Part shown: positions 2,016 to 48,744 of the stretch, piece by piece
Numbering within the stretch: the first letter of the stretch is position 1
Layout of the letters: every line of letters starts with the position of its first letter
Position numbers and translations under genes: made by a program
NCBI GenBank assembly: GCA_020632255.1
Contig: JACKFX010000006.1
Span: 13,399 to 77,398 of the forward strand
Direction of reading: 5' to 3'
DNA from: Pseudomonadales bacterium
Lineage (GTDB): Bacteria; Patescibacteriota; Microgenomatia; UBA1400; PJMF01
DNA length: 64,000 nt
Notes under the pieces: model-generated
The model's input: only the letters and a program-made list of their open reading frames with translations
The model's database searches: none
Told to the model about the DNA's origin: nothing

Positions 2016-2240
2016 CTTTCCGGCCGCTCAATACTACTACAGTGTGTCTACTGTTTCTTCAAAAATGAAGAATGAGTATTGAGGGACTTCGTCAACTGCC
2101 CGTAATCGAGCTAGCATCACTCCTCATTTTTGAGCTCGTGATGCTACTCTGCTTTCATTTCCACCCATTGGGGGTGGTGGTGCTTGAGGGCCTCTATTTT
2201 GGTATTGAGATTGCTAAGGCAGAACATAAAAGCTCGCGAG

Positions 2241-3969: not shown

Positions 3970-4354
3970 CACACAGACCAAATATGGTCACGTGGTGATG
4001 CTCTGCAGTATACCCCTTAGGCATTTTTGAGTAGTCTAATTGACACTCAAATGTCTGAATTTTATCACACTGCCGACACACAAAGTGATCGTGGTGATGG
4101 TGGTCAGTATGACGAAGCTCGTAGTACACCTTATCGGTACCAAAGCTATGGCGGCAGACCTGCTGGTCCTCAACCATTTTTTCGATACTGCGGTACACGC
4201 TCGATTTATTAAACGAACGCCCTTGTTTCTCTAACAGCGTCATCAACTCTGGCACCCCAGCGTAGTGCTTTTCCTCGAGTATCGAAGTAATTAGATCTTT
4301 AAGATTTCGCTTTTTGACTGCAGTTTTATGCAACCTGTTTCTAAGAATTCCCAT
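3941..4354 (-). CDS. zur: Fur-family metalloregulator, probably the zinc uptake regulator Zur.
   Basis: 137 aa with an N-terminal winged-helix and C-terminal HHHDH...CxxC...C metal sites. It sits last in a znuA-znuC-znuB operon. Confidence 0.75.
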   Translation of the reverse strand: MGILRNRLHKTAVKKRNLKDLITSILEEKHYAGVPELMTLLEKQGRSFNKSSVYRSIEKMVEDQQVCRHSFGTDKVYYELRHTDHHHHDHFVCRQCDKIQTFECQLDYSKMPKGYTAEHHHVTIFGLCDVCAKHATP

Positions 4355-21786: not shown

Positions 21787-23976
21787 CTATTTTTTTGTAG
21801 TTGCAGCCTTTTTCTTTGTGGTTTTTTTAGTTGATGATGCCTTTGTTGATGAAGATTTCTTTCGACTTTCAAGCCATTTTTTCTTACGCTCCACACGTTC
21901 TTCTTGCTGCTTTGTCCATTCTGCTTTGGTCACCTTCATACCTTTTTCTGGCTTCTTCCATGAAGCCCAGTCACATTCTGGATAGCGATCACAACCAAAA
22001 AATGACTTTCCCCACCGTGAGTTCTTGACAATGACGTCGCCTTCTTGGCACAGTGGGCACTTCACACCCTCAACTGTTTCGTTAATGTTCTCGGTAAATT
22101 TACAATCTGGGAAACGATTGCAACTTTTAAATTTTCCAAAGCGGCCGGTTCGGATAACCAACATTCCACCATCGGTAGCATTACAATCAGGACACTTTTC
22201 TCCTGTTTCCTCGACAGGAATTTGTTTGCGCTCGGCAGAATCAGTGACTTTATCAATTTTTTTGCTCAGCGGTTTGTAAAAGGTCTCAACTACCTTCTTC
22301 CATTCTTTTTTGCCAAGAGCAATTCGGTCTAAGTCTTCCTCCATCTCGGCGGTGAACTCATACTCCATAAACTCTGGGAAGTTCTCCATGAGAAAGTCAG
22401 TGACTGTCAATCCAACTGCAGTGGTAAAAAATCGCTTCTCTTTTCGCTCAACATACCCTCTGTCAACTATTACAGAAATAATTGACGCGTAAGTACTTGG
22501 ACGACCGATACCTCTTTTCTCGAGTTCTTTAATCAAAGAAGCATCATTGTAACGTGCGGGTGGCTGGGTAAACTTCTGCATAAAGGTGCTATCAGAATGG
22601 TAGAGAGCCTCACCGGTTGCAACTTCGGGCAGCAGTGTATCTTCTCTATTTGGAAAAAGTGCAGTCCATCCATCAAATTTCATGACTGAACCATTTGCTT
22701 TGATCTCACCACTTTTAATTTTTTCTGTCTTTTTAGAAGGTTTAAAAGTAATAGTCACCGTTGTTTGAGCATAGACAGCATCTTCCATTTGACTGGCAAC
22801 ATAGCGATTCCAAATCAAAGAGTATAATTTGGCATGCTGTTCAGTAAACTTACCACTTTTGGCGATAATGTCTCTGCCTACAATACCAATTTCAGTCACA
22901 CGAATTGCTTCGTGAGCTTCTTGAGCATTCTTACTTTTCGTACTGAATAGTCGAGGTTTTGATGGTAAATAGTTTTCTCCGTAAGAAGACTGAATATACT
23001 CACGAGCCATATTAATTGCTTGATCTGAAAGGTTTGTAGAGTCAGTTCTATGGTAGGTAATTAAACCTTCTTCATAGAGACCCTGCGCCAACTGCATCGT
23101 TTTTTTACCACTATATCCAAATGTTGTTGCAGATTTCTGTTGCAGCGAAGAAGTTGTGAAAGGGGGCAAACTCTTACGTTTGCGCTCTTTCTTTTCTACA
23201 TCAGTAATCGTGTACTCTGCAGATGGAATAATCTTTTTTAACTCAGCTACATCTGCTTCTTTTTTAGGAGCAAATTTTTTACCGTCAAGTTTCTGAACTT
23301 TTCCGAGAATGATTCCGTCTGGAATGTTATCAAGTACTTTACCTTCTTCATATACTTTTGAAGCTCTCTTTTCTTTCGAGAGAGCGACATCTACTTCCCA
23401 ATATTCTTCTGGTTTAAATGCCTCGATCTCACGTTCACGCTCAGCGAGAAGTCTGAGCGCAACTGATTGAACACGCCCTGCAGATAATCCACGGCGAATT
23501 TTCTTCCATAAGACTGGTGAGACTTTATATCCCACCAAGCGATCCAAAACACGGCGTGCTTGCTGTGCATCTACTAAATCCATGTTGAGTGTAGTAGGTT
23601 TCTCAATTGCTGCTGTTACTGCAGACTTAGTAATTTCATGAAACGTAGCCCGTCTATACTCGATTTTTTTGCCAAGTTCCTTATCTTCTGTAAGTAAGTG
23701 CTTAATATGCCAAGCAATTGCTTCTCCCTCTCGGTCAGGGTCAGTTGCTAAATAAATAATATCAGCATTCTTAGCTTCATTCTTGAGTTTTGTAAGTACT
23801 TTCTTCTTGTCGGCGTTTACCTCATAGGTTGGCTCGAGTGTATCTTCGTCTACCCCCAAGCCACTTTTAGGCAAATCTCGGATATGACCTACTGATGCTT
23901 CAACTCGAAAATCTTTTCCCAAGTAACCGCTTAACTTCCGGGCCTTAGTTGGTGACTCAACAATAACTAGCTGCAT
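21787..23976 (-). CDS. topA: DNA topoisomerase I.
   Basis: Toprim start MQLVIVESPTKARKL, catalytic Tyr region and several C-terminal C4 zinc ribbons. Confidence 0.95.
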   Translation of the reverse strand: MQLVIVESPTKARKLSGYLGKDFRVEASVGHIRDLPKSGLGVDEDTLEPTYEVNADKKKVLTKLKNEAKNADIIYLATDPDREGEAIAWHIKHLLTEDKELGKKIEYRRATFHEITKSAVTAAIEKPTTLNMDLVDAQQARRVLDRLVGYKVSPVLWKKIRRGLSAGRVQSVALRLLAEREREIEAFKPEEYWEVDVALSKEKRASKVYEEGKVLDNIPDGIILGKVQKLDGKKFAPKKEADVAELKKIIPSAEYTITDVEKKERKRKSLPPFTTSSLQQKSATTFGYSGKKTMQLAQGLYEEGLITYHRTDSTNLSDQAINMAREYIQSSYGENYLPSKPRLFSTKSKNAQEAHEAIRVTEIGIVGRDIIAKSGKFTEQHAKLYSLIWNRYVASQMEDAVYAQTTVTITFKPSKKTEKIKSGEIKANGSVMKFDGWTALFPNREDTLLPEVATGEALYHSDSTFMQKFTQPPARYNDASLIKELEKRGIGRPSTYASIISVIVDRGYVERKEKRFFTTAVGLTVTDFLMENFPEFMEYEFTAEMEEDLDRIALGKKEWKKVVETFYKPLSKKIDKVTDSAERKQIPVEETGEKCPDCNATDGGMLVIRTGRFGKFKSCNRFPDCKFTENINETVEGVKCPLCQEGDVIVKNSRWGKSFFGCDRYPECDWASWKKPEKGMKVTKAEWTKQQEERVERKKKWLESRKKSSSTKASSTKKTTKKKAATTKK

Positions 23977-24072: not shown

Positions 24073-25227
24073 CTACTGATTTAGATACCAGAGTATACCA
24101 TCTTTGACAAGCTCTCCCCTAATTTCCATCTGAGCAACAGCAATCAAAACCTCCTTAAGCGTCACCTCAGTTGCTGCCGCCAACTGCTCGACTGTCGCCG
24201 GTCCCTCATTCACAAATCGAGCAATAGCAGCTGAAAGCGAGCCATCATCAATCCCTTGGATAGGCGCCGTTCTCAGCCCTTCTTCTTGAGGTATTTTTCC
24301 CAACACTTCTGCAACCTCGTATCCTGATGTCAGCAGGGTTGCCCCCTGGTTAATAAGCCATTTTGTTCCTTCGCTATAGGGGTTAGTAATAGCACCTGGG
24401 ACGGCGAAAATTGCGCGGCCGTTCTCGGCCGCGCAAATCGCTGTCGAGTGACTACCACTCCGCTGAGCTGCCTCAGTCACTACTACTGCTTTGCTGAGTC
24501 CTGCAATAATTCTATTTCTTTCAACAAAATATCCTGGACGTGGCTCTGTAGCAGGTGCATATTCACTGACAACTGCACCTCCCCGTAAAAGAATTTCTTG
24601 CCTCAAACTTCTCATTCTTTCTGGATATGCATGCTCAAATCCATATCCCAACACCGCCACTGTTTTACCACGGCAAGACAGAGCTTCTCGATGAGCACAC
24701 TCGTCTACCCCATACATACATCCAGAAACGATTACAAAAGCATCACCCACAAGTTGTCGAGTTATTGTTTTGGTGATCAGAGCTCCATATCCAGTCATTT
24801 TCCGAGACCCCACTACTGCCACCATTTCCTTCGACAACAAACGCACATCTCCCTGAACATACAGCACCAGTGGTGGATCATCACAGCTATATAACTGAAC
24901 AGGAAACTCTTCTGATCCCATAATTATGACCGAAGCATTTGATTTCTTTGCTTCCCGAAGAGTTGATATGTAAAATTGTTCGATTTCAGATATTTTTGGC
25001 AATTTATCAATATTTTTAAATAATATTAAAAAGGACTTTTGCGCACTCCCCCACTCCCAAATAGCATCGGGTTTGATTTGGTTGTTAAGTATTTCCACCA
25101 ACATAGCGATAACACTTCTCCTCCCAATACCAGGAAGAGAGAGTAAGTACAAAATTAACCATTGATGCCATGGTTGGCAATTACGAAATGAATCGAGTGA
25201 GTGCATACACTGCAATCTATACGACAA
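24073..25227 (-). CDS. dprA: DNA processing protein DprA (Smf).
   Basis: AVVGSRKMTGYG...VIVSGCMYGVDECAHREAL...VVTEAAQRSGSHSTA. The true start may be an internal Met. Confidence 0.85.
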   Translation of the reverse strand: MSYRLQCMHSLDSFRNCQPWHQWLILYLLSLPGIGRRSVIAMLVEILNNQIKPDAIWEWGSAQKSFLILFKNIDKLPKISEIEQFYISTLREAKKSNASVIIMGSEEFPVQLYSCDDPPLVLYVQGDVRLLSKEMVAVVGSRKMTGYGALITKTITRQLVGDAFVIVSGCMYGVDECAHREALSCRGKTVAVLGYGFEHAYPERMRSLRQEILLRGGAVVSEYAPATEPRPGYFVERNRIIAGLSKAVVVTEAAQRSGSHSTAICAAENGRAIFAVPGAITNPYSEGTKWLINQGATLLTSGYEVAEVLGKIPQEEGLRTAPIQGIDDGSLSAAIARFVNEGPATVEQLAAATEVTLKEVLIAVAQMEIRGELVKDGILWYLNQ

Positions 25228-38247: not shown

Positions 38248-38318
38248 AGGGCCGTAGTTCAGCGGTAGAATAGAGGTCTCCAAAACCTTTGACGGGGGTT
38301 CGATTCCCTCCGGCCCTG
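38248..38318 (+). tRNA. tRNA-Trp (anticodon CCA).
   Basis: Cloverleaf: acceptor AGGGCCG/CGGCCCT, D-arm GTTC/GAAT, anticodon stem GAGGT/ACCTT with loop CTCCAAA, T-arm GGGGG-TTCGATT-CCCTC, discriminator G. It closely resembles bacterial tRNA-Trp. Confidence 0.9.
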
Positions 38319-38333
38319 CAAAATCCTATAATA

Positions 38334-38362
38334 TTGACTTTTGCGCTATTCATTGCTATAAT
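38334..38362 (+). promoter_or_regulatory. Consensus sigma70-like promoter downstream of tRNA-Trp. Likely the ancestral secE-nusG promoter, now separated from those genes.
   Basis: TTGACT, a 17-bp spacer, then TATAAT. Confidence 0.5.
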
Positions 38363-38409
38363 CACTGAAGTTTAAAATCATATTTTCTAGATCACAGGAG
38401 ATCAGATGA

Positions 38410-39150
38410 AAAAGAAACAAAGGCAGACTGTCAAGCGCTCTTTTCATAGACAGTGAGTTAAGATAGTTGGCGTGGAATTTAGAGGGCGGCATTTCAGAGC
38501 AGAGTGGATTCTTTCGTGGTTGTAGCTGTAAAGTGTGGTGGATGGCTTCTAGAAAATGTCCAGTATCTTCAAAGTGGTCAAATTCTAGACCTAAATCAGT
38601 CTTAAAGTTGTTGTAAAAGCTCTAGTAGCCGTTCTCCGAGGAGAGGCCTTGGCACTCATGGAAACTGTTACTCCAAAATTCTTTACTAAATCTGTGTAAT
38701 CCTGGCTGGTATATTCCGCTCCTTGGTCTGTGTGGACAAATGTTGGTTTTGGAAATCTCGGTTTACTAAGCCATCTACAAAGGCTTGCATAACCAGATTT
38801 TTGTCGTGTCTTTGGGAAACCTGCCATCCCACAATTTCTCTGGTAAATACGTCATAAAAGTAGCTAGGATAGAAAGCTTTCCTTAAATGGCAAGTACGTA
38901 AAATCTCCCACCCAAGTGTGGTTTGGCAAGATTGGACAGCTTCCTTTATCTCATTCTGGTATGGAGCTGGTTTTCTTTGCTCGTCCCGGCTTCTCCATCT
39001 GGCTTTTCTCTTGTATGGCTTAAGCCATACTTGTGCATTAATCAATGCTCTTTTTCCTACGCCAAGCTCAATGGAGATTCTTCGGTAGCCATAGCTCGCT
39101 TGTTAGAACTGAGCCCCAAAGGCTTCTATCTGCTCTTGAGCACAGCATCT
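38410..39150 (-). pseudogene. Degenerate IS3/IS481-family (rve integrase-core) transposase, disrupted by multiple frameshifts and stops.
   Basis: Fragments in different frames: HTDQGAEYTSQDYTDLV..GVTVSMS (DDE core), YNHERIHSAL (C-terminal signature) and a possible OrfA/OrfB junction-like ...SLWGSVLTSEL. No intact ORF. Confidence 0.75.
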
Positions 39151-39222
39151 TTATGCTCCTGTACAAAATCTTTTATACAACCATTGCCTGAAACACGAAA
39201 ATATCTGCTACTACATTCTTGG

Positions 39223-39951
39223 CTATCTCTGAAACTTCTTGCTACAAAGATCTCGCTGTTTCACTTCTTTTTTTTTTGTTATTACACTGCTTTCCCCCAT
39301 ATCTTGGGTACCCAATTCTAGTAAATCAGTTTCTCCATGTCCCCCAACGAGTACTACATCTAAGTCTGTTTCTGGATATTCACTCTTTAAAAGTTTCATT
39401 CTCAAGTAGACATCAATACCGTTTCCTGCCTCAATGATATTGAAATTAAGCTTCTGTGATGCTCCTAAAAGTTCTGCAAAAGTTTCTTCATCTTCATAAA
39501 AAACACCGGCACGATCTGCATAAGGGTATATTAACGTGACGGTAGGAGCTGCAGGATCACGATTCAAAAATCTATGAAATACTTCAATAGGATATCTGCC
39601 AAAGTGACAAACACCATAATTGCTATGTATCTTTTCTAAAACCTCTGGTCCATACTGTTCTCTAAGAATAGAAATTGTTGTAACATTTCTTTCTAAATTA
39701 GAAATATCATAAGATAAACCTAATGCCCCCTTTTCCCATGCCTCAGCTAACAGATCTGCATCTAAGATGTCCGAACTAAATGGGACGGCATACACTTGTT
39801 TAATTAATTCTCTCTTTGCAGGTTGTGACAGAATTTGCATATAGTTATGTAAGACGTTAAGCACTGTTTCTTTATCTTCTTGTTCTCTTAAACGACTCAA
39901 AATTCTCAGTAGTCTTTGTTGAACCTCAACTCCACGATCACCTTCAAGCAT
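39223..39951 (-). CDS. Hypothetical protein (242 aa), island cargo.
   Basis: Clean ORF. No confident motif (VVLVGGHGETD noted). Confidence 0.4.
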   Translation of the reverse strand: MLEGDRGVEVQQRLLRILSRLREQEDKETVLNVLHNYMQILSQPAKRELIKQVYAVPFSSDILDADLLAEAWEKGALGLSYDISNLERNVTTISILREQYGPEVLEKIHSNYGVCHFGRYPIEVFHRFLNRDPAAPTVTLIYPYADRAGVFYEDEETFAELLGASQKLNFNIIEAGNGIDVYLRMKLLKSEYPETDLDVVLVGGHGETDLLELGTQDMGESSVITKKKEVKQRDLCSKKFQR

Positions 39952-40013
39952 AGGTTGAACAAATATTGGGGCATGTAATACTAGACTTGCTAATAACTCT
40001 TGATTATCAGCAA

Positions 40014-40481
40014 CTAAGGATTCAATTTTTGAGCTACAGCTGAACTGACATCAGAATCTAAATACCCGTACAAGTAATCAAGGATAGCTAAATACGATGG
40101 TATCAACTCAGTGTACTTTACTGGATCAAACAACACTAAATAATTAACATTAGACGACAAAATAGATTCTACTCTTTGAATAATTTCAAAACTAATATTA
40201 GAAGTCTGCAAATGAGCGGTGAGAATTGCTAGTGAAGGTACTAATTCTGTTAATAGCTCTGTATGTGCGAACGCAAACTTAATTTTATCTTGGTTTTTTT
40301 CTAAATATCTGCTTAAACCAGGTAAGACTTTTTCTGAACTTTGTGATGCTTGCAAGCTTCTAGATAACTCTGAAAGTTTGTTAACAATTTCTAATGACTG
40401 CTCCCATTGTTCGGAATGCAAATCATATCTACCATCTAAGGTCAAATCGTCTGCCGAATATCTTGTTTCTGTCATACACAA
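40014..40481 (-). CDS. Hypothetical protein (155 aa), island cargo.
   Basis: Clean ORF. It lies 62 nt from the next ORF in a different frame. Confidence 0.4.
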   Translation of the reverse strand: MCMTETRYSADDLTLDGRYDLHSEQWEQSLEIVNKLSELSRSLQASQSSEKVLPGLSRYLEKNQDKIKFAFAHTELLTELVPSLAILTAHLQTSNISFEIIQRVESILSSNVNYLVLFDPVKYTELIPSYLAILDYLYGYLDSDVSSAVAQKLNP

Positions 40482-40518
40482 ATCATACAGACACTTTCTG
40501 GATATTTCATCTCAAGAT

Positions 40519-40546
40519 AGGTTCTAACATCCTTCACTAGCCCCTG
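40519..40546 (+). repeat. Island direct repeat, copy 1 (tRNA-Trp 3'-end-like att/promoter-proximal motif).
   Basis: AGGTTCTAACATCCTTCACTAGCCCCTG, consensus aGGTTCTaACATCnTTCACTAgyCCCTGCA. Confidence 0.7.
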
Positions 40547-40619
40547 TATTTTTTATTTCTCTTGAATTTTAAAGGTGGCATCAACACATTACATCGTGTT
40601 TTTATACTATAATCTATTC

Positions 40620-41453
40620 ATGAACGACTTTTCGAAAAACGCTCCTCCTTCAGCAGATGTTTTGAAAGCATTTGGTATCTCAGATGAAGCTATTCTATTA
40701 CCTGGTGGCGAAGGCACATCATATCGAGCTGGAGATATTGTTCTTAAACCAACACAAAACAATGCTGAATCAGCCTGGATAGCTACTACGCTTTCCTCTA
40801 TCAATCAAGATGGTTTTAGAGTTACTCAGCAAGTAAAAACAACCACTGGAGAGTGGGTGTCTGATGGTTGGCAAGCATTTCGCTACTTAAAAGGAAAATA
40901 CATAAAAGGTAGATGGGAAGAAAAAATAGATATTTCCAGAAAATTTCACGGAGCACTCTCGACTATAGAAAAACCAAATTTTATCGGAACTAGACAAACA
41001 CCTTGGGAAGTTGCCGACTCAGAGATCTGGGGTAGTAATCAAATAACATTTGACCAGCAGCTACAAAAAGTGACCAATCCTCTTCTAGCTGTTAAACAAG
41101 ATATCTTTCCTACCGAGCAACTAATCCATGGAGACATAACAGGGAACATTCTATTTTCAGAGTCTCTGTCACCTGCAATTATCGATTTTTCTCCCTATTG
41201 GAGACCAGCGGAGTATGCAACAGCAATACTCATTGTTGATGCACTAGTTTGGGAGGGTGCTGCTGATTCATTATTTTCTAAACTTGAAAATACTTGGGTA
41301 AATAATCAATTGCTCATACGTGCTGCGCTATGGAGGATAAAAACTTCTGAACTATTCTCTCAGAGAAAACTGAAAGACTTAAAAAATGAGGCTAGTGCGT
41401 ATGCTCACTTTGTTGATGTGCTCTTAAAAAGAATTAGTCATGAAAGAAAATAG
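40620..41453 (+). CDS. Aminoglycoside/choline-kinase-like phosphotransferase (APH family) protein.
   Basis: ATP-binding Lys region GDIVLKP, catalytic LIHGDITGNILF (HGDxxxxN) and IIDFSPY (DFG-like). The ORF extends to 40575. Confidence 0.65.
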   Translation: MNDFSKNAPPSADVLKAFGISDEAILLPGGEGTSYRAGDIVLKPTQNNAESAWIATTLSSINQDGFRVTQQVKTTTGEWVSDGWQAFRYLKGKYIKGRWEEKIDISRKFHGALSTIEKPNFIGTRQTPWEVADSEIWGSNQITFDQQLQKVTNPLLAVKQDIFPTEQLIHGDITGNILFSESLSPAIIDFSPYWRPAEYATAILIVDALVWEGAADSLFSKLENTWVNNQLLIRAALWRIKTSELFSQRKLKDLKNEASAYAHFVDVLLKRISHERK

Positions 41454-41484
41454 GTTCTCACATCGTTCACTAACTAATCCTGCA
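41452..41484 (+). repeat. Island direct repeat, copy 2.
   Basis: AGGTTCTCACATCGTTCACTAACTAATCCTGCA, followed by TTGATA...TATATC promoter-like boxes. Confidence 0.65.
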
Positions 41485-41536
41485 AAAAAATAATCCCGAT
41501 ATTGATAACTTGAAATATTCTGCTATATCTTGAGAG

Positions 41537-42229
41537 ATGTCAAAAACTGAAAACAGTGTGTATGTTATTTCTTCAGTCAGGGGTGTCTCTGAACTAGAAA
41601 GAACAGAAATTGCGCAACATATAAGAAACTTGCGTCAGTCGGGAGAAGAAGTATTTGATCCGTATTTAGACGCACCTCAAACTGATACAAGCGGTCTTGC
41701 AATAATACTCGCAGAATTGAATTTCTTGGTAAAGCTGTCAGAGTCTAGTGATCTTGGAAGGGTTGATATTTTTTGGAATCATACAAGTGAGGGTTCAAGG
41801 GTAGATGTTGGGATGGCTATAGCCTTAAACCTAAGGATTAATCTGGTTAAAATTTTTAATGAGAATGAGAGCTCTTCTCCCCAACTTGTGTTGCGACTTA
41901 TTACCGAAATCTGTGAGCTTCAGGAAATGGGTAACTGGCCACCACAAAAACGAAAAGAAATTAGCCCTGATCTTGCCAAAACACTCAGATATTTAGATGA
42001 AATAAAAAACTCTGAGCAAATATCAATTAATTGGAATTCATTGGATTCAGAAGAAGCTGAATTTCAGAGATTAATCTTGGGTTTGTCGCTGGGGACAATG
42101 GGTAAAAGAAACAAAAATTTAAAAATAACAATAAGAGATGTTGATGGGTATGTTGACCCCGATGTAAAAAGTTATCCTAATGCAATTTCGGCACTAAATA
42201 CATTACTGACAACTGAAAATGGGTTCTAA
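41537..42229 (+). CDS. Hypothetical protein with an N-terminal TIR-like / nucleoside-deoxyribosyltransferase-like (flavodoxin-fold) region.
   Basis: SVYVISSVRGVSELERTEIAQHIRNLRQSGEEVFDPYLD resembles the TIR betaA-alphaA-betaB pattern (xVFISxRGxD...L...G..VFxD). This is tentative. Confidence 0.4.
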   Translation: MSKTENSVYVISSVRGVSELERTEIAQHIRNLRQSGEEVFDPYLDAPQTDTSGLAIILAELNFLVKLSESSDLGRVDIFWNHTSEGSRVDVGMAIALNLRINLVKIFNENESSSPQLVLRLITEICELQEMGNWPPQKRKEISPDLAKTLRYLDEIKNSEQISINWNSLDSEEAEFQRLILGLSLGTMGKRNKNLKITIRDVDGYVDPDVKSYPNAISALNTLLTTENGF

Positions 42230-42250
42230 CATCTTTCACTAGTCCCTGCA
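42221..42250 (+). repeat. Island direct repeat, copy 3; it overlaps the stop codon of the preceding gene.
   Basis: GGGTTCTAACATCTTTCACTAGTCCCTGCA. Confidence 0.7.
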
Positions 42251-42346
42251 GAGTCATGAAATACCCTATTTATCATCTTAATGTTTTAGATTTTTCTAGT
42301 AAAAATAGTATTCCATTTAAAGGTTCGCTGGTTTACAATTAATGCT

Positions 42347-43039
42347 ATGAATGAACAAAATACTTTTTTTGATACTGGTAGCCAACCTTTTGATATCTTA
42401 AGTCATATGAACATAATTGAACATATTCAGAAGAAGATGGAAAAATTCAATGTTTCTGAAAGAGCTGAGTGGTATAAAAATATATTAAAGCGCATGCTAG
42501 GTATTTTTGATGAAATGGATGGACAAAAAATCACCCTTGATATGCAACAATTGTTTGAGAAATTATACACTGAAACTGATTTAACTGGTACTTCTACGAA
42601 TTGTAATAATTCAATTATCGGCAATATTCAGCGAACTGGTAATGAGCAACTTCAAAAATGTTTTCTACTAGCTACGATTGAAGACGCGTCCAATGATACT
42701 AACTCAAAAAATCAATTTTCTCCTGATATTCCACAGTTAGATAAAAATGTGGTTAGACAAAATGCTCAGAATATGGGAGTTGTGCAGATGGAATTGCATA
42801 GGGTGCTAAGATATTGGTTAACTCCTTTATCACCAGAGAAGCGCAAAGATTACTTCAAGCGACTCTATCAATTGACAGATTTTGACGAGAATGAATCAGA
42901 TACAAAATCTAAAGAGCAATTAGTGAATACAAGTGGATCAACGTGTGCATATGAATTTCTTGTCGCCTGGCGTAGGTTTGGTAGTGAAACATTAAATAGC
43001 AAGCTAATTAATGTTATTGAATCTCCAAGTGATATTTAA
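42347..43039 (+). CDS. Hypothetical protein (230 aa), island cargo.
   Basis: Clean ORF, AT-rich codon usage distinct from the core genes. Confidence 0.4.
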   Translation: MNEQNTFFDTGSQPFDILSHMNIIEHIQKKMEKFNVSERAEWYKNILKRMLGIFDEMDGQKITLDMQQLFEKLYTETDLTGTSTNCNNSIIGNIQRTGNEQLQKCFLLATIEDASNDTNSKNQFSPDIPQLDKNVVRQNAQNMGVVQMELHRVLRYWLTPLSPEKRKDYFKRLYQLTDFDENESDTKSKEQLVNTSGSTCAYEFLVAWRRFGSETLNSKLINVIESPSDI

Positions 43040-43059
43040 TTTTCTTATCCAAAATAATT

Positions 43060-43292
43060 TCTTAAGAGTGAACAATCTCTTCGGCTACAAAAAGCCGGAG
43101 CTTCATGCATGAGGACTAATCGCCCTCAATACTTACTTTCGTAAGTATGCAAGACATTCTCATTTAGCCTCCGGCTTAAACTACGCTATTCATCCCTAGG
43201 CTTGAAACGTAGGGTTTTCTGTATTGGAGGAACAAAACGGTATTAAGCCCTCGAAGCTATGGGCTTAAATATCCGATTGCGCTTGATAGAAA
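43060..43292. ncRNA. Candidate structured noncoding RNA or DNA element (unknown class).
   Basis: Several nested helices visible by eye. AAGCCGGAG...CTCCGGCTT is a 9-bp long-range stem. Hairpins include CGGCT-ACAAAA-AGCCG, ATACTTAC-TTTC-GTAAGTAT, CCCTA-GGCTTGAAACG-TAGGG and AAGCCC-TCGAAGCTAT-GGGCTT. The region has no ORF. Confidence 0.35.
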
Positions 43293-43294
43293 CC

Positions 43295-43324
43295 GAGTTC
43301 TAACATCCTTCACTAATCCCTGCC
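43295..43324 (+). repeat. Island direct repeat, copy 4.
   Basis: GAGTTCTAACATCCTTCACTAATCCCTGCC. Confidence 0.7.
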
Positions 43325-43393
43325 GACCATGTGGTGATGAAATTACGAGTTACTCTTCCCAAGAAAAATAGTTTTAAAATATTCGAAAAAATC

Positions 43394-43837
43394 TCATTCT
43401 GGAAAAACAATTACATTGATTGGTCTAGCATCAGAAGCTATCAAATCTTCAATTCTTAATCCTGCTTGAATTGCGTTTAGACCTGATTTTATGGCATCAA
43501 AATGTATTAGGATCAATTTTAAATGCTCCTCATTTTGCAAGTCTATTGGATCTTTACGTGCTGGACTATCACCCCATGCCATACCTTTTAATGCAACTGA
43601 AACCGATCCAATCGCAAGCCTATTAGAAACAACTGCACTAAACTCGATTAACATAGTGTATGATCCTCCCTTAAAACACTCTTTTTGGGCTGTTATTTTC
43701 CCAACATGCATGTTGGCCGCTGGTTCTGCAGTTAGTTTTACGGTAAAGCCTGCATCTCCTAGCTTATCTTGTAGCCATTCTGCAGATTTCATGGCCATTG
43801 ATTCAGGACTGTGATCTGCGAACCTTTCATCAATCAT
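43394..43837 (-). CDS. Hypothetical protein (148 aa), island cargo.
   Basis: Start MIDERF has the RBS AAGGAAGAGAG. The ORF extends to 43951. Confidence 0.45.
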   Translation of the reverse strand: MIDERFADHSPESMAMKSAEWLQDKLGDAGFTVKLTAEPAANMHVGKITAQKECFKGGSYTMLIEFSAVVSNRLAIGSVSVALKGMAWGDSPARKDPIDLQNEEHLKLILIHFDAIKSGLNAIQAGLRIEDLIASDARPINVIVFPE

Positions 43838-44022
43838 ATGTGTTCTCTCTTCCTTTTTATATTTTATATGAAGAATAGGGTAATTAGAAATGAGTGTCAA
43901 GAATCCTAATTGGCTTATTTCATTATTGAATATGGGAAAATCCTCCCACATAAAAACCGTTACTTTTGGTAGCTTTCATACTATCGTCGTTTCATTGAGA
44001 GTTCTAGATCAAATAGTTATAT

Positions 44023-44052
44023 AGGTTCTCACATCATTAACTAGCCCCTGCA
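44023..44052 (+). repeat. Island direct repeat, copy 5.
   Basis: AGGTTCTCACATCATTAACTAGCCCCTGCA, followed by AAACCATAAG. Compare CCCTGCAAAATCCTATAA after tRNA-Trp. Confidence 0.7.
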
Positions 44053-44112
44053 AAACCATAAGTCCACTCTTCCCGCTTTACCAGAGTACATTCCGTGTGC
44101 TATTTTTAAGAT

Positions 44113-44580
44113 ATGAACGAAAACATCCCCACGCTTAAACAAGAAACCCTTGCATTTATGCGGAACATGCCGATTATGTCGGCAGCAATTAACGGCACTC
44201 CTCCTGTCTCGACAATTCTCCTCTTCGCGATTGATGATGATTTCACCATGTACTTTGCTGCCCTCAGCAACAGCTATAAAGCCAAAGCTCTCGAGAAAGA
44301 TTCAGGTTTTTCATTCTCAATTTGGGAACATGATAAGATGTATATACAAGCAAGTGGAAATGCACAGTTACTCCAAGATCCAGAAGAGATCGATGCTACA
44401 ATCGACAAACTAGCAACGGCAGCTTTGGGTATTGAAAACTTCTGGCCACCTGTTTTACAAATAAAAGGTCAGGATTATCAAGTCTATAGACTTGATCTTA
44501 ATTGGATTAGAATTCGCAGTCTTTCAGACAAAACACTTGTCGAAAAAACTAGTAAATTTGTGGAAGTACCCCTAAAATGA
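44113..44580 (+). CDS. Pyridoxamine 5'-phosphate oxidase-like FMN-binding split-barrel protein.
   Basis: LKQETLAFMRNMPIMSAAINGTPPVSTILLFAIDDDFTMYFAALSNSYKAKALEKD follows the PNPOx-like pattern. Confidence 0.6.
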   Translation: MNENIPTLKQETLAFMRNMPIMSAAINGTPPVSTILLFAIDDDFTMYFAALSNSYKAKALEKDSGFSFSIWEHDKMYIQASGNAQLLQDPEEIDATIDKLATAALGIENFWPPVLQIKGQDYQVYRLDLNWIRIRSLSDKTLVEKTSKFVEVPLK

Positions 44581-44945
44581 ACAAAAATCTCTTGATCGTT
44601 GAAGATGACCTATTTTTAGGTAAGCTGACTGTAAAAAAACTCGAAATGGAAGGCTTCACTGTCACTTTCCTCAACGACGGCAGTTCTGTCCATGACGAAG
44701 CAAAGCGACTACAACCAGCCGCAATCTTACTCGATATTATCATGCCAAACAAAGATGGTTTTGAGGCACTCTCAGAATTAAAAGGCGACGACGCGACCAA
44801 AAAAATTCCTGTGATCGTTCTGTCAGCACTCAGTGATGAGAAAGACAAGAAAAAAGCAAAAGACCTTGGAGCAGAGTCATTTTTTGTTAAATCTGACGTA
44901 GAACTTTCTGATATTGCTAAGTATGTTAAAAAAATTGCAAGCTGA
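44577..44945 (+). CDS. Stand-alone response-regulator receiver (CheY-like) domain protein.
   Basis: LLIVEDD, a phospho-acceptor Asp in LLDIIMP and a conserved Lys. There is a 4-nt ATGA overlap with the upstream gene. Confidence 0.75.
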   Translation: MNKNLLIVEDDLFLGKLTVKKLEMEGFTVTFLNDGSSVHDEAKRLQPAAILLDIIMPNKDGFEALSELKGDDATKKIPVIVLSALSDEKDKKKAKDLGAESFFVKSDVELSDIAKYVKKIAS

Positions 44946-45203
44946 TTAAATTTATCATACATTTTATACACTATTCACCAGACTTAGCTCTGTTTTGCAA
45001 ATCGGTGCTAAATGCTAGCTAAGTCTTTAATCTCTCATACATTTTTTGTATATGGTTGAACTAATGCGCTCTGATCATCAGATGTCACTGCCTCACGAAT
45101 TGCTTCAGTGGCATACATACGTCTACTAATCCTCTCTTCAATTGAGAGAAGCATACTACTATCGATTCTTTCTGTTTATCGTTAAAGCAGCTATACTGTT
45201 CCT

Positions 45204-46520
45204 ATGCCAGAACTTTTCGACCCCTTCCTCGTAAAAAGTCTCAAAGAGGACAAAGCGTATTTAGAGACAACTACCGTTCCAATCATCACTGTCTCTAGTA
45301 GTTATCGCGAAGACCTCAAAGAAATGCACGGCTTTCCTGCCAAAGATGACACCCCTGACATTGTTTTTTCTCGGGCCCACTACTCTATGGCTCTCGCAGT
45401 AGGTATGGCAGCATGGGGAAAGAAGATGGATCCAAAAAAGGCCTGGATTCTTGATCCAACTAACTATGTTTCAAAAAAGGACTGGGGTTCAATTGTCTTT
45501 ACTGAGGAAGTTGGTAAATTAATTGCACGACATGATGTACTAAAAACTCTTAAAGCTTTCATCGATAGGTTTGGTCGCAATAAACTTCCTATTTTGGAAA
45601 GCATCACTCCACCACTGTTGTATGTCACCGAAAAAATTTCAGGTCCAATTTTATCGTTCCACATTGCTGCTGGAAACATTTTAGCACCACTCGGAAAAAC
45701 AGTAGTACAAGTGATTACCGATCCGCATGTTCGTGATGAATATGTGACCAATGCTTTCCGCAAAAATATGTATTTTTGTGTCTTTGATGAGAACACGAAA
45801 ACAGAGTTCCTCGAGAAAGCCGCATTAATGGGGGTAAAAGCGGATCCAAAACGAGTTTTCGTTACCGGTGCCCCGATTGATCCACGAACACTTGCAGCAA
45901 AACAAAAAAAGAACCCCTATCGTAGTGGTGTTCTCAAACTGTGTCTCACAACCGGCGGACTCGGAACGAACAAACGCGAACTATTGGAAGTAGTTGAACA
46001 ACTCTTACCCGAACTGCGCAAACAAAATCGCAGTTTGGGATTGGTTGTGTACTGCGCAACCCACGAAGACATTTATAAAGAAGTGGTAAAACTCGCGAAA
46101 GAAAAGCGCGTTGCAGTGGGTGCAGAAACAGACAAATCAGCCGCACTTCGTGTGCTCTATCATCCTCAAATCGTGGATGCAAATGAGAAACTTCAACAAC
46201 TTGCATTCCCTTGGGCACACGGCTTCATTACCAAACCTTCTGGAGACATGGCGTATGATGCCGCAGCATCTGGAAGCTTTGTGCTCACTCTCGATGAGTG
46301 GGGACCTTGGGAAGTGCATATCCGAGAAATATTCGAACAGAAACAAATTAGTCGCAGACTCGTACTCGAATCAGTTGTTCCTCAACTTGAAAGTTTGCGC
46401 AGCGCCAAAGGTCAACAACGTTCCTGGATTGAGCAAGCTATGCTCAATGCCGATGCGCTACCAAGCGCGCTTACCCATGGCGCAAAGCATATTGTTGAGG
46501 TGGTAAAAAATGTTAGTTAA
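45204..46520 (+). CDS. GT-B glycosyltransferase-like protein (MurG/MGDG-synthase/UgtP-like GT28 C-terminal domain).
   Basis: FITKPSGDMAYDAAASGSFVL resembles the ITKPGGxTxxEALAxGxPMI box of GT28 enzymes. Assignment is by eye only. Confidence 0.45.
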   Translation: MPELFDPFLVKSLKEDKAYLETTTVPIITVSSSYREDLKEMHGFPAKDDTPDIVFSRAHYSMALAVGMAAWGKKMDPKKAWILDPTNYVSKKDWGSIVFTEEVGKLIARHDVLKTLKAFIDRFGRNKLPILESITPPLLYVTEKISGPILSFHIAAGNILAPLGKTVVQVITDPHVRDEYVTNAFRKNMYFCVFDENTKTEFLEKAALMGVKADPKRVFVTGAPIDPRTLAAKQKKNPYRSGVLKLCLTTGGLGTNKRELLEVVEQLLPELRKQNRSLGLVVYCATHEDIYKEVVKLAKEKRVAVGAETDKSAALRVLYHPQIVDANEKLQQLAFPWAHGFITKPSGDMAYDAAASGSFVLTLDEWGPWEVHIREIFEQKQISRRLVLESVVPQLESLRSAKGQQRSWIEQAMLNADALPSALTHGAKHIVEVVKNVS

Positions 46521-47545: not shown

Positions 47546-48364
47546 CTACGAACGAAGCTCAACTGGCCAGAATTGATCTCTAGCCATTACACTGAACTCA
47601 ATTCCTCTTGATGCAGACACAACTTTGAACTCCCCAACTGGGTCATAGGTGTCGCCATCCGGCCACAGCACTGGCTCTTGTCCAAATGCTCCAGCCAAAA
47701 AAATCAGTAAGTCTACTGGATTTGGTGTAAGTAAGTCAAAATGGATTTTTTCTGGTGCATCAACTTTTCCAGGAAAAAATTGGTGTTCAACATACACAAC
47801 CCCATTGGGTGCCCTGCCATCGACAATATCAACTGGCAAGTACAAACGTTGGTGATCATCAGCCGGCCTATTTAATATATCTGTCTGATTCTGCCGTGCA
47901 TATGCAATAGCCGCATCCCACATCGCATCCTCACTACCATGTCGATATCCGACATGGTGAAGACTAACGTCATTCAGCATTGCATACACTAAAGTAGCAG
48001 CAATCACACGATCAACCTCTTGAGGAAGTCCTGAAATAGCAGCTGCCAAATCATCAAATAAGACACCCCCCATCCAACCATATGATTTAACATAATCCTG
48101 GAAAGGCGTAACAGCAAAGCGATTAGTCTGTCGCTCTCTCGAGGCGACAATCAGCTCTCCAAACTTTCCATAGGCAATACCCGATACAGTAGGATCACTA
48201 AGTGATCCTCCCAAAGGTTGCCCAATGGCGATCGTCCCAAGTTGCTCATCAATGTACCCCAGTACCCCGTATGAAACGGGAAATGCTGGGTGTCCAAAAA
48301 CTTGCAACATTTGAAAAAGTAAATCTCCCAGATCAATACCTCGTTGTAACTCTTTTGTATCCAT
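47546..48364 (-). CDS. Hypothetical protein (273 aa).
   Basis: The start MDTKEL is preceded by GGAGG. The ORF extends to 48595, with a possible signal-peptide-like MTKGLLYILLLF start. Confidence 0.45.
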   Translation of the reverse strand: MDTKELQRGIDLGDLLFQMLQVFGHPAFPVSYGVLGYIDEQLGTIAIGQPLGGSLSDPTVSGIAYGKFGELIVASRERQTNRFAVTPFQDYVKSYGWMGGVLFDDLAAAISGLPQEVDRVIAATLVYAMLNDVSLHHVGYRHGSEDAMWDAAIAYARQNQTDILNRPADDHQRLYLPVDIVDGRAPNGVVYVEHQFFPGKVDAPEKIHFDLLTPNPVDLLIFLAGAFGQEPVLWPDGDTYDPVGEFKVVSASRGIEFSVMARDQFWPVELRS

Positions 48365-48744
48365 GGTTCCTCCATTTGGATATAGCTTGATTTGAAATAA
48401 ATTAACGAATAACAGCAAAATGTATAACAAGCCTTTTGTCATACTTTCACTGCAAGTGCTGTATTGTAGCATAAAAAGAATGATGCAGAGGGAAATAAAG
48501 TAAACAAAAACAGCCCTGCGTGAGAGGTGAACGATTCCCGGAGGAACCAAGTGGGTAGGAAGCACACTACTCCTCGGAGCAGAGCGACAATCCATAACCC
48601 GTTTATGAAGTGTTCAGGAAAACTCTTCAACCTCTCACGCAGGGCTGTCTTTTAATGTTCTAGATTCCTTTCGGAATTTCGTTCAGTTGTATCTTAAGTA
48701 TACAACAGTTCTTTTCAACTCAAAATATGAGTAAAGACCTCACT

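What the first reader, a model, noticed from the sequence alone, without database searches (positions are those of the whole stretch)
39223..46520. Cargo of the cassette array: candidate signalling/defence-like gene set (APH-like kinase, TIR-like protein, PNPOx-receiver pair, ORFans)
The genes between repeats are unrelated to each other and to core metabolism. They are an APH-family kinase (HGDxxxxN catalytic loop), a protein whose N-terminus resembles a TIR/deoxyribosyltransferase fold, three ORFans, a PNPOx-like FMN protein translationally coupled (ATGA overlap) to a lone receiver domain, and a GT-B glycosyltransferase-like gene. TIR-like and kinase domains are recurrent in antiphage and signalling islands. 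Single-gene cassettes behind identical promoter modules suggest interchangeable accessory functions.
Basis: inference. Interest (0 to 1): 0.55.

Follow-up and report, generated by a model that had tools for sequence, protein, structure and literature searches.

The report
tRNA-anchored gene-cassette array and its cargo
The region holds small, unrelated accessory genes stored as swappable cassettes behind a tRNA-Trp gene, in an integron-like array that recurs across ultra-small (CPR/Patescibacteria) bacteria, and nothing in its cargo looks like an antiviral defence system.

Summary
The ORFs and the repeats are real. Five copies of a 30-nt direct repeat lie at 40514-44053, all on the + strand (0 of 100 shuffles reach five). 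The repeat is not a promoter module. It is a cassette-end site made of a constant 20-nt module, GGTTCTAACATCnTTCACTA, plus a 7-12-nt tail that copies the 3' acceptor end of the upstream tRNA (tRNA-Trp here). The same module follows tRNA-Trp, tRNA-Gly or tRNA-Gln in roughly 40 other CPR contigs.

Cassette D is 97% identical in DNA to a cassette in another genome whose core protein I is only 62% identical. Its neighbours differ, and identity breaks exactly at the tails.

Cargo:
- C is an APH-superfamily (TIGR02569-like) kinase.
- D has a nucleoside 2-deoxyribosyltransferase-like fold and is not TIR.
- A/B is one frameshifted, IS-truncated gene.
- E and F are ORFans.
- G and H are a PNPOx-like protein and a receiver with an ATGA overlap; their cassette status is unsure.
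- I is a conserved core neighbour, not cargo, and its GT-B identity is unproven.

PADLOC and PHROGs gave nothing specific. No recombinase gene was found nearby. "Interchangeable accessory cassettes" is supported; "defence/signalling island" is not.

The parts
38248..38319 (+). tRNA-Trp(CCA). It anchors the array, and its 3' acceptor end ...GGCCCTGCA is copied in the repeat tails.
   Evidence: ARAGORN and Rfam. tRNA-Trp lies upstream of the same repeat type in L008, L026, L040, L058 and L068.
38400..39274 (-). Remnant of a DDE (rve) transposase/IS. It replaces the tRNA-proximal cassette(s) and the 3' third of gene A.
   Evidence: Pfam rve on fragments 38591-38827 (E 8e-9) and 38686-39045 (E 0.002). 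L031 is 100% identical to the window only from 39275 rightwards; to the left it carries another cassette end, repeat r0 and a full-length A.
39223..39951 (-). Gene A, the C-terminal part of a split A/B gene, truncated here. Full length is 323 aa in L031, L077 and L078. It carries an invariant GGHG...(S/A)C motif.
   Evidence: There is no family hit beyond a weak DUF4347 match on homologue P0275. The AF2 model has low confidence.
40014..40481 (-). Gene B, the N-terminal helical part of the same ancestral gene. It is separated from A by a frameshift near the run CAAAAATTG.
   Evidence: P0275 (508 aa) is a B+A fusion. The frames were read.
40514..40548 (+). Repeat r1: module 40520-40539 plus tail GCCCCTGTA. 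It ends the A/B cassette.
40620..41453 (+). Gene C, an APH-superfamily (TIGR02569-like) small-molecule kinase. Its stop codon is the TAG of the repeat's flanking ATAGG.
   Evidence: NCBIfam TIGR02569 E 6e-35, at 120.9 bits below the 136.75 cut-off. There are 121 homologues, many with PF01636 and some named phosphotransferase. HGD..N and IDF are invariant.
41447..41484 (+). Repeat r2: module 41453-41472 plus tail ACTAATCCTGCA, which carries a 3-nt insertion.
41537..42229 (+). Gene D: an N-terminal nucleoside 2-deoxyribosyltransferase-like domain (about residues 5-110) and a C-terminal alpha/beta domain of unknown function. Its stop codon is the TAA inside the module.
   Evidence: AF2 pLDDT 88, pTM 0.89. 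Foldseek top hits are NDTs with probability 1.0. The PDB profile search gives E 0.015. Among distant relatives, 33 of 48 match Pfam Nuc_deoxyrib_tr.
42216..42250 (+). Repeat r3: module 42222-42241 plus tail GTCCCTGCA. It travels with cassette D.
42347..43039 (+). Gene E, an ORFan of 230 aa in the lowest-GC stretch (0.33).
   Evidence: No hit in Pfam, NCBIfam, PADLOC or PHROGs. Its 90% cluster has a single member.
43040..43289 (+). Non-coding tail of cassette E with several hairpins.
   Evidence: RNA fold z = -2.9. No Rfam match. A 53-nt stretch matches the L058 array on the opposite strand.
43290..43324 (+). Repeat r4: module 43296-43315 plus tail ATCCCTGCC.
43394..43951 (-). Gene F, an ORFan of 185 aa, antisense to the array.
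44018..44052 (+). Repeat r5: module 44024-44043 plus tail GCCCCTGCA. It is the last detectable copy.
44113..44580 (+). Gene G, a PNPOx-like split-barrel protein (probable). It lies beyond the last repeat, so its cassette status is uncertain.
   Evidence: Pfam PNPOx_N E 2.6e-5, at 25 bits below the 28.1 cut-off. NCBI names it a PNPOx family protein. No repeat follows H.
44577..44945 (+). Gene H, a stand-alone receiver (CheY-like) domain whose start overlaps the end of G (ATGA).
   Evidence: Pfam Response_reg E 3e-19. The acidic pocket, phospho-acceptor Asp, Ser and Lys are readable in the sequence.
45204..46520 (+). Gene I, a conserved core neighbour of the tRNA-Trp locus and not cargo. Its function is unassigned.
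   Evidence: 62% identical homologues lie directly beside tRNA-Trp in L008 and L026. No family or PDB hit.

Best explanation
Region 39.2-45 kb is the variable part of a tRNA-Trp-anchored, integron-like cassette array of a Patescibacteria (CPR) genome. Each cassette consists of its own short 5' leader, one gene (rarely two) and a 3' cassette-end site. That site is a constant 20-nt module, GGTTCTAACATCnTTCACTA, followed by a 7-12-nt tail identical to the 3' acceptor end of the anchoring tRNA.

Inferred mechanism: a site-specific recombinase encoded elsewhere in the genome binds the module. It exchanges strands within the short tail that the cassette end shares with the tRNA 3' end. Circularised cassettes are thereby inserted next to the tRNA, or next to another cassette end, and can be excised or swapped. 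The tRNA end would play the role of attI and the module plus tail the role of attC.

The cargo is a grab-bag of dispensable accessory genes:
- an APH-superfamily kinase;
- an NDT-fold N-glycosidase/transferase-like protein;
- a decaying putative His/Cys hydrolase (A/B);
- two ORFans;
- perhaps a PNPOx-like protein with a receiver domain.
It is not a coordinated signalling or defence system.

Shown: the array, the link between tail and tRNA, cassette transfer between genomes with breakpoints at the tails, and the protein family assignments. Inferred: the recombinase and the strand-exchange mechanism.
For: 1. The repeat is real and oriented. Five copies lie on one strand regardless of gene strand.

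2. The same module occurs in roughly 40 non-redundant CPR contigs (Saccharibacteria, Nealson-, Pace-, Woese- and Parcubacteria MAGs and metagenomes). It always lies downstream of a tRNA and on the same strand.

3. The tail tracks the tRNA. For tRNA-Trp it is g(c/t)CCCTGCA; for tRNA-Gly (a/t)CCCGCT.. or CTCCGCA; for tRNA-Gln CCCGCAGCA. In 11 of 15 arrays the tail shares at least 7 nt exactly with its own tRNA end, against 0.7% of 150 mismatched pairs.

4. Cassette D (window 41448-42250) is 97.4% identical to L028 995-1796. The core protein I of the same two genomes is only 62% identical. Identity begins right after the upstream tail CCTGCAAA and ends right after the cassette's own tail CCTGCA. 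The upstream modules differ, while the cassette's own module is identical, including the rare ATCTTTC variant. Eight shared bases are too few for RecA-type recombination (established knowledge), which points to a site-specific exchange.

5. The 60% homologue of C also ends in the module, in a different genomic context.

6. Cassette-like statistics: median spacing is 953 nt, 53 of 66 ORFs are co-oriented, and the module supplies the stop codon in 15 of 49 cases.

7. GC is low in the array, and both flanks are core genes: DprA, PBP2, MreBC, def, fmt on one side and L33, tRNAs, GalU, NusG, L11, L1 on the other.

8. Cargo across 16 arrays is heterogeneous: NUDIX, methyltransferases, Fic, MazF, RelE/RHH pairs, GNAT, HD and many ORFans.
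Against: - No recombinase was found. Single-sequence phmmer with XerD and gamma-delta resolvase seeds found nothing in the 64-kb window or in any fetched locus. Pfam on 30 flanking window ORFs shows only housekeeping genes. No gene family recurs beside the arrays.
- The site has no dyad symmetry and no ssDNA hairpin. It therefore matches neither a classical tyrosine-recombinase core site nor an attC.
- No circular or empty-site junction was observed.
- Many loci are MAG or metagenome contigs, and some are duplicates of each other.
- G and H have no terminal repeat, so the array's distal end is undefined.
- Two arrays (L037, L067) have tails that do not match the nearest tRNA.
Confidence: 0.6

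Rival explanations
1. The repeats are portable homology rather than recombinase sites. CPR bacteria are naturally competent, and cassettes would be exchanged by DprA/RecA-mediated double crossover between the 30-nt repeats after DNA uptake.
For: A DprA gene lies in the window (24073-25227). No dedicated recombinase was found. The repeats are about 30 nt and direct.
Against: For cassette D the upstream repeats of the two genomes differ at more than 5 positions, and identity starts only at the 8-nt tail. That is too short for RecA recombination. This model explains neither the conservation of a 20-nt module across CPR phyla nor the tail's tracking of the local tRNA.
Confidence: 0.15
2. The array is the debris of repeated integrations of classical integrase-carrying elements into the tRNA gene, as with tycheposons or genomic islets. 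The integrase modules have been lost, and the repeats are leftover partial-tRNA att sites.
For: Integration at a tRNA 3' end with repeated partial tRNA ends, newer elements pushing older ones outward, is described for tycheposons (10.1101/2020.12.28.424599). In L026, L028 and L066 a 190-nt element ends in an exact 20-nt tRNA-Trp 3' end.
Against: The units are 0.4-3.9 kb (median 953 nt), mostly single genes. No integrase fragments appear in any of roughly 40 loci. The repeat is mostly a non-tRNA 20-nt module that stays the same behind Trp, Gly and Gln tRNAs. Ordinary att duplication does not predict that.
Confidence: 0.15
3. The repeat is an expression signal that was copied with the genes. It could be the promoter module the first reader proposed, a terminator, or an RNA-processing or stability element. 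The array would then be only a cluster of co-regulated accessory genes.
For: Some copies are followed by TCCTATAAT (-10-like) or by a hairpin terminator in L026 and L028. 80% of ORFs are co-oriented.
Against: Sequence between the repeat and the next start codon is not conserved. The repeat overlaps upstream stop codons. Promoter-like and terminator-like sites are no more frequent than in shuffled sequence. The repeat has no fold and no Rfam match. Orientation is constant even for antisense genes A, B and F. The tail-tRNA identity is left unexplained.
Confidence: 0.05
4. The cargo is a defence or signalling island, with kinase, TIR-like effector and receiver acting together.
For: Related arrays contain Fic (SoFic-like), MazF, RelE and a RecQ/PsyrT-like gene. 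A/B has a possible His/Cys hydrolase motif.
Against: No PADLOC hit for the window's cargo apart from generic receiver matches. D is NDT-fold, not TIR. The genes sit in separate cassettes with independent histories. A/B is frameshifted and truncated. No histidine kinase was found among the window ORFs scanned.
Confidence: 0.05

Closest known systems
Chromosomal integrons and CALINs (attC cassette arrays)
   Same: Arrays of mostly single-gene, co-oriented cassettes. Each ends in a recombination-type site that often overlaps the stop codon. Insertion occurs at one fixed anchor. Cargo is heterogeneous. The same cassette appears in different arrays with breakpoints at the sites.
   Different: The anchor is the 3' end of a tRNA gene, not an attI next to intI. 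No integron integrase is adjacent. The site is a conserved linear 20-nt sequence plus a tRNA-matching tail, not a weakly conserved imperfect palindrome that folds as ssDNA.
Tycheposons and other tRNA-targeting integrative islands (Hackl et al., 10.1101/2020.12.28.424599)
   Same: Integration at tRNA 3' ends, tandem accumulation with repeated partial tRNA ends, and cargo that varies between related genomes in streamlined bacteria.
   Different: Those elements are multi-kb and carry their own integrase and replication genes, and their repeats are plain partial tRNAs. Here the units are about 1 kb with no integrase, and the repeat is mainly a non-tRNA module shared by arrays behind different tRNAs.
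pdif (Xer) modules of Acinetobacter plasmids (own knowledge, not checked here)
   Same: Small modules, including toxin-antitoxin genes, bounded by short conserved recombination sites and moved by a recombinase encoded elsewhere.
   Different: pdif sites are 28-bp XerC/XerD dyads in alternating orientation. Here the sites are direct, asymmetric and tied to a tRNA.
APH/choline-kinase-like phosphotransferases (Pfam PF01636; NCBIfam TIGR02569)
   Same: Gene C has the catalytic-loop HGD...N and the IDF metal-binding Asp, both invariant in its family. Its homologues carry PF01636.
   Different: C scores below the TIGR02569 cut-off and has one residue fewer between D and N. Its substrate is unknown, and nothing points to aminoglycoside resistance.
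Nucleoside 2-deoxyribosyltransferases, DNPH1 and BcmB (Pfam PF05014 superfamily)
   Same: Residues 5-110 of D adopt this fold. The positions mutated in the deposited C. thermalis NDT structures (Y7, D62, E88) align with invariant Y9, E60 and D90.
   Different: The two acidic residues are swapped (Glu for Asp at position 60, Asp for the nucleophile Glu at position 90). An extra 120-aa C-terminal domain is present. Pfam does not call D directly.

Membership tests
Integron | IntI tyrosine recombinase gene adjacent to the array | tested here: not met
   phmmer with a XerD seed found no hit in the window or in any fetched locus. Pfam on flanking ORFs shows only housekeeping genes. The seeds were single sequences, so sensitivity is limited.
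Integron | attC sites: imperfect inverted repeats (R''-L''/L'-R') that fold as ssDNA hairpins | tested here: not met
   The ten 81-nt ssDNA folds (both strands of the five sites) give MFE -1.2 to -6.1 kcal/mol and z -0.6 to +1.8. No local inverted repeats were found.
Integron | Array of short, mostly single-ORF, co-oriented cassettes, each ending in the site | tested here: met
Integron | The same cassette in different arrays, with boundaries at the sites | tested here: met
   Cassette D in the window versus L028. Shared cassette families between arrays.
Tycheposon / tRNA-integrating island | Integration at a tRNA 3' end, leaving repeated partial tRNA ends | tested here: met
   Only the last 7-12 nt of the tRNA are repeated.
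Tycheposon / tRNA-integrating island | Element-encoded integrase and replication module | tested here: not met
TIR domain (gene D) | Profile or fold match to TIR, with its catalytic Glu | tested here: not met
   D has no TIR hit. The Foldseek top 50 contains no TIR. Only 2 of 48 distant relatives touch TIR_2, at E 0.0016.
Nucleoside 2-deoxyribosyltransferase (gene D) | NDT fold | tested here: met
   AF2 pLDDT 88. Foldseek probability 1.0, E 0.009-0.05, against 8pqp, 8pqs, 9emx and others. Profile against PDB E 0.015.
Nucleoside 2-deoxyribosyltransferase (gene D) | Catalytic Glu nucleophile (E88 of the C. thermalis enzyme) | tested here: not met
   E88 aligns with invariant Asp90 in the motif SEGSRVDVGMA. 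An acidic residue is kept, but it is not Glu.
APH-like kinase / TIGR02569 (gene C) | Profile match above the curated cut-off | tested here: inconclusive
   TIGR02569 E 6e-35, but 120.9 bits against the 136.75 cut-off. Pfam gives only Fructosamin_kin at E 0.008. Many homologues carry PF01636.
APH-like kinase / TIGR02569 (gene C) | Catalytic loop HxDxxxxN and the downstream metal-binding Asp | tested here: met
   HGDITGN, one residue shorter than the motif, and IDF. G171, D172, N176, D189 and F190 are invariant in 15 sequences.
Response-regulator receiver (gene H) | Pfam PF00072 above the cut-off and the phospho-acceptor Asp | tested here: met
   69.6 bits against the 30.2 cut-off. LLDIIMP is read from the sequence.
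PNPOx-like FMN-binding split barrel (gene G) | Profile match above the cut-off | tested here: inconclusive
   25.0 bits against 28.1 for PNPOx_N; Pyrid_ox_like 23.2 against 28.8; TIGR03618 weak.
GT-B glycosyltransferase (gene I) | Profile or fold match to a GT-B family | tested here: inconclusive
   No Pfam, NCBIfam or PDB sequence hit.
Known anti-phage defence systems (PADLOC 2.0) | Any cargo protein matching a defence-system model | tested here: not met
   No families for A-G or I. H gives only generic receiver-domain matches.

The most novel reading that the evidence does not exclude
CPR/Patescibacteria possess their own gene-capture system, functionally analogous to integrons but built differently. 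tRNA 3' ends serve as the insertion site. A conserved linear 20-nt module plus a tRNA-matching tail marks each cassette. An as-yet unidentified recombinase, encoded away from the array, moves cassettes between phylum-level lineages.
Probability: 0.4. Interest if true: 0.8.

Novelty: new variant of a known kind. Interest (0 to 1): 0.6.

Why it matters
CPR bacteria have tiny genomes and depend on host cells. How they acquire and shuffle accessory genes is poorly understood. A cassette system with a 20-nt signature that can be searched for directly would have three uses:
- mapping their flexible gene pool in any metagenome;
- identifying the responsible recombinase by phylogenetic profiling;
- possibly providing a defined insertion site for genetic work in cultivable Saccharibacteria.

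For this finding itself, the practical message is that the cargo should be read as unrelated accessory genes, one of them decaying. It should not be read as a defence island, and the 'TIR-like' label should be replaced by 'NDT-like'.

Tried and rejected
- **Defence and phage libraries.** PADLOC and PHROGs on all nine proteins gave nothing specific.
- **RNA families.** Rfam, at the gathering threshold and in permissive mode, found only tRNAs and terminator-like noise.
- **Recombinase hunt.** All-against-all clustering of ORFs in about 40 array loci found no recurrent enzyme.
- **HTH + LAGLIDADG-like ORF.** One lies directly upstream of the tRNA in L008 and L002, but in no other locus. I rejected it as a general factor.
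- **Phage attP idea.** The module has no match in IMG/VR viral contigs.
- **attC idea.** The sites form no hairpin.
- **tRNA-mimic idea.** The T-arm-like start GGTTC(T)AA cannot form a T-stem, and the variable n position shows no partner (read).
- **A/B structure.** AF2 of homologue P0275 gave pLDDT 52, with the C-terminal domain below 50, so no fold search was run.
- **Gene I.** Sequence and profile searches against PDB gave nothing.
- **Literature.** No paper holds the motif string. Keyword searches for CPR cassette arrays returned nothing relevant.
- **More distant homologues.** Those of D (51% and 40% identity) and of C (55%) are not next to the repeat.

Full report
**What is in the sequence**

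Between 39223 and 46520 there are nine ORFs:
- A, 39223-39951 (-)
- B, 40014-40481 (-)
- C, 40620-41453 (+)
- D, 41537-42229 (+)
- E, 42347-43039 (+)
- F, 43394-43951 (-)
- G, 44113-44580 (+)
- H, 44577-44945 (+)
- I, 45204-46520 (+)

GC falls to 0.33-0.39 between 39 and 45 kb, against about 0.43 in the rest of the window. A direct repeat of about 30 nt, consensus aaATAGGTTCTaACATCnTTCACTAgyCCCTGCA, occurs five times with module starts at 40520, 41453, 42222, 43296 and 44024. All copies are on the + strand. Chance expectation is 0.3 copies, and none of 100 shuffles reaches five. A profile built from related copies finds no sixth copy in the 64 kb. A tRNA-Trp gene (38248-38319, +) lies upstream, followed by fragments of an rve-type transposase.

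**The repeat is a cassette boundary tied to a tRNA, not a promoter**

Only the 30 nt are conserved. Sequence between the repeat and the next start codon is not. The repeat keeps one orientation although A, B and F are on the other strand. It also overlaps the stop codons of C (TAG of ATAGG) and D (TAA inside GGTTCTAAC).

Scanning public genomes and metagenomes for the 20-nt core returned 70 stretches of DNA. About a third are unrelated coding sequence (mostly Flavobacteria) or chance matches. The rest are CPR/Patescibacteria contigs labelled Saccharibacteria, Nealsonbacteria, Pacebacteria, Woesebacteria or Parcubacteria, plus MAGs labelled 'Pseudomonadales' from a 'PATE' series. Many of them carry 2-7 copies.

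In these loci the constant module GGTTCTAACATCnTTCACTA is followed by a tail that is constant within an array and differs between arrays. Wherever a tRNA gene lies upstream on the same strand, the tail copies the last 7-14 nt of that tRNA. In some loci the copy includes the first bases of the tRNA's 3' flank.
- tRNA-Trp: CCCTGCA(A)
- tRNA-Gly: (A/T)CCCGCT.., TCCGCACAAAAA, CCCGCACCAAAAG
- tRNA-Gln: CCCGCAGCAAA

Eleven of 15 arrays share at least 7 nt exactly with their own tRNA end. Only 0.7% of 150 mismatched array-tRNA pairs do so.

Spacing between copies has a median of 953 nt (range 393-3860). Of the ORFs inside arrays, 53 of 66 are co-oriented with the tRNA. The module itself supplies the stop codon for 15 of the 49 repeats that have an ORF ending nearby.

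**Evidence that cassettes move**

Window 41448-42250 (cassette D with both flanking repeats) is 97.4% identical to L028 995-1796, from genome JACKFW010000001.1. The conserved neighbour protein I is only 62% identical between the same two genomes.

The neighbours also differ. Upstream of D is kinase C in the window but an unrelated 174-aa ORF with a GSGKS (P-loop-like) motif in L028. Downstream is E in the window and a 190-nt non-coding element in L028.

Base-level alignment shows that identity begins immediately after the upstream tail (CCTGCAAA) and ends immediately after D's own tail (CCTGCA). The two upstream modules differ at several positions. D's own module is identical in both genomes, including the uncommon ATCTTTC variant. 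The mobile unit is therefore [leader - ORF - module], and the exchange point lies within a 7-8-nt tail.

The closest homologue of C (60% identity, L084) also ends in the module, with its stop codon in ATAGG, in an unrelated context between a metal-repressor gene and dnaG. Other cassette families (RelE-like toxin, an HD-domain protein, small proteins, GIY-YIG) recur in arrays of different genomes.

Population variants exist too. Contig L031 is 100% identical to the window from 39275 rightwards. To the left it carries a further cassette end, repeat r0 and a full-length A of 323 aa, where the window has the IS remnant.

**How it most likely works**

The layout is what repeated insertion of circular cassettes at the tRNA's 3' end would produce, with strand exchange in the short segment shared by the tRNA end and the cassette's tail:

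tRNA ... tail | cassette ... module + tail | cassette ... module + tail

This is formally the attI x attC logic of integrons. I infer a recombinase that recognises the 20-nt module.

That enzyme was not found:
- No Xer-like or resolvase-like ORF appears in the window or in any fetched locus. The search used single-sequence phmmer, so sensitivity is limited.
- The 30 other window ORFs scanned with Pfam either match core-gene families or have no match, and none is a recombinase. The families found are PGA_cap, two components of a ZnuA-type ABC metal transporter (ZnuA and ABC-3 families), CysRS, ThyA, TopA, DprA, PBP2, MreC, MreB, an M50 peptidase, a HAD hydrolase, NusG, L11, L1, Gmk and ThrRS. 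Other calls add Wzy-family, def, fmt and L28 and tRNA-Thr/Tyr/Thr. I read L33, GalU and an MBL-fold hydrolase from the ORF sequences.
- No gene family recurs beside the arrays.
- The module is absent from viral contigs.

The site has no dyad symmetry and does not fold as ssDNA, so it is not an attC.

Rival explanations are RecA/DprA-mediated exchange using the repeats as homology, debris of integrase-bearing tRNA-targeting elements, and an expression signal. None explains the combination of three observations: a module conserved across CPR lineages, tails that track the local tRNA, and breakpoints in an 8-nt tail. None is formally excluded.

**The cargo, protein by protein**

*C* is an APH-superfamily kinase.
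- NCBIfam TIGR02569 gives E 6e-35, below the curated cut-off.
- There are 121 homologues. Many carry precomputed PF01636, and some are named phosphotransferase.
- HGD..N and IDF are invariant.

*D* was modelled with high confidence (pLDDT 88, pTM 0.89).
- Its N-terminal 105 residues match nucleoside 2-deoxyribosyltransferases (Foldseek probability 1.0), then DNPH1 and BcmB. No TIR appears among the top 50.
- A profile search against PDB agrees (E 0.015).
- Of 48 distant relatives, 33 match Pfam Nuc_deoxyrib_tr and only 2 weakly match TIR_2.
- The residues mutated in the deposited C. thermalis NDT structures (Y7, D62, E88) align with Y9, E60 and D90, all invariant in D's family. An active site is probably kept, but with the acidic residues swapped.
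- D also has an additional 120-aa C-terminal domain.

*A and B* are one gene.
- Homologue P0275 (508 aa) fuses them.
- In the window they are separated by a frameshift near the run CAAAAATTG.
- A is further truncated by the IS remnant.
- An invariant GGHG...(S/A)C pair suggests a His/Cys hydrolase. The only profile hint is DUF4347 at E 0.007, and the AF2 model is unreliable.

*E and F* have no detectable relatives in the four family libraries searched. No broad homologue search was run for them.

*G* is a sub-threshold PNPOx-like protein. *H* is a canonical stand-alone receiver, and the two overlap by ATGA. No repeat follows H, so whether G-H is the last cassette or part of the flank is open.

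*I* has no family or PDB match. Its 62% homologues lie directly beside tRNA-Trp in L008 and L026. It is conserved flank, and the GT-B idea remains untested.

**Defence reading**

PADLOC found nothing for A-G or I, and only generic receiver-domain matches for H. PHROGs likewise found only receiver matches for H.

Across 68 cassette ORFs from 16 arrays the cargo is heterogeneous. It includes NUDIX (3), methyltransferases (2), Fic (2, SoFic-like), MazF, a RecQ/PsyrT-like helicase, an ABC transporter and others in the family scans. RelE/RHH-like pairs, GNAT-like and HD-like ORFs were read from the sequences. Most ORFs have no assignment. By my own recollection (not checked here), that profile resembles chromosomal integron cargo. 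It is not a coordinated defence island.

**Comparison with known systems and novelty**

The array works like an integron. It fails two defining membership tests: an adjacent IntI, and attC sites that form hairpins. It shares tRNA targeting and tandem growth with tycheposons (10.1101/2020.12.28.424599), but it lacks their integrase and replication modules, and its repeat is mostly non-tRNA sequence.

No paper in the searchable library contains the motif, and keyword searches found no description of such arrays in CPR bacteria. That library is limited to open-access PMC and bioRxiv.

I therefore rate the array a new variant of a known kind (site-specific cassette arrays), with an unidentified enzyme. 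The cargo finding as written is of modest interest. The system that carries the cargo is the more interesting object.

Noticed in passing
L026 3184-3366, 4915-5098, 6647-6830; L028 208-390, 1797-1978; L066 about 2922-3100: A conserved non-coding element of about 190 nt follows some cassette-end repeats. It starts with a hairpin terminator and ends in an exact 20-nt copy of the tRNA-Trp 3' end (GATTCCCTCTGGCCCTGCAA), often followed by TCCTATAAT. The L066 copy shows paired changes in one hairpin (ATGC/GCAT to ACAC/GTGT). The RNA fold z is only -1.8, and there is no Rfam or tmRNA match. It is absent from the window.
   Followed up: partly
L008 5122-5853 (+); L002 1163-1825 (-): An ORF with an N-terminal transposase-type HTH and a LAGLIDADG-like motif (YWGEGxK / FWAEGSK) lies directly upstream of the anchoring tRNA, overlapping its 5' end in L008. 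The two ORFs are 30% identical to each other. No homologue exists in the window or in other array loci.
   Followed up: partly
window 43040-43289: A hairpin-rich non-coding stretch lies between gene E and repeat r4 (RNA fold z -2.9, no Rfam match). Its 53 nt at 43185-43236 match the L058 array (4128-4180) on the opposite strand at 81% identity.
   Followed up: partly
window 38248-45203 compared with L008 and L026: The tRNA-Trp gene and its array are inverted as a block relative to L008 and L026. There gene I lies divergently next to the tRNA. In the window I abuts the distal end of the array, and the MBL-hydrolase flank abuts the tRNA, as it does in L058.
   Followed up: partly
This is either an alternative recombination junction or an assembly artefact at a contig end.
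   Followed up: partly
window 39223-46520 (NCBI proteins MCB9801369-MCB9801373, locus tags H6773_04225 to H6773_04265): The source MAG is labelled 'Pseudomonadales bacterium' in NCBI (contig 79,527 nt). Its closest DNA and protein relatives are Patescibacteria/Saccharibacteria MAGs, so the label is probably a taxonomic mis-assignment, as for HK-STAS-PATE-15.
   Followed up: no
L084 2060-2175 and 3008-3036: The 60% homologue of kinase C sits as a solitary cassette with no tRNA in the 5.3-kb contig. A good module lies at its 3' end, and two decayed module-like stretches lie upstream (GGTTCCCAAATCATCCAATAAGCCC and CTTCGTTCACTAAGCTATAAT).
   Followed up: partly
window 48506-48528 and 48630-48652: A 23-nt inverted repeat, 96% complementary with arms 101 nt apart, lies at the 5' end of the unassigned 349-aa ORF 47546-48595 (no Pfam hit).
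   Followed up: no
window 24073-25227 and 21787-23976: DprA (the DNA-processing protein of natural transformation) lies next to topoisomerase I, 13 kb upstream of the array. This bears on how cassette DNA might enter the cell.
   Followed up: no
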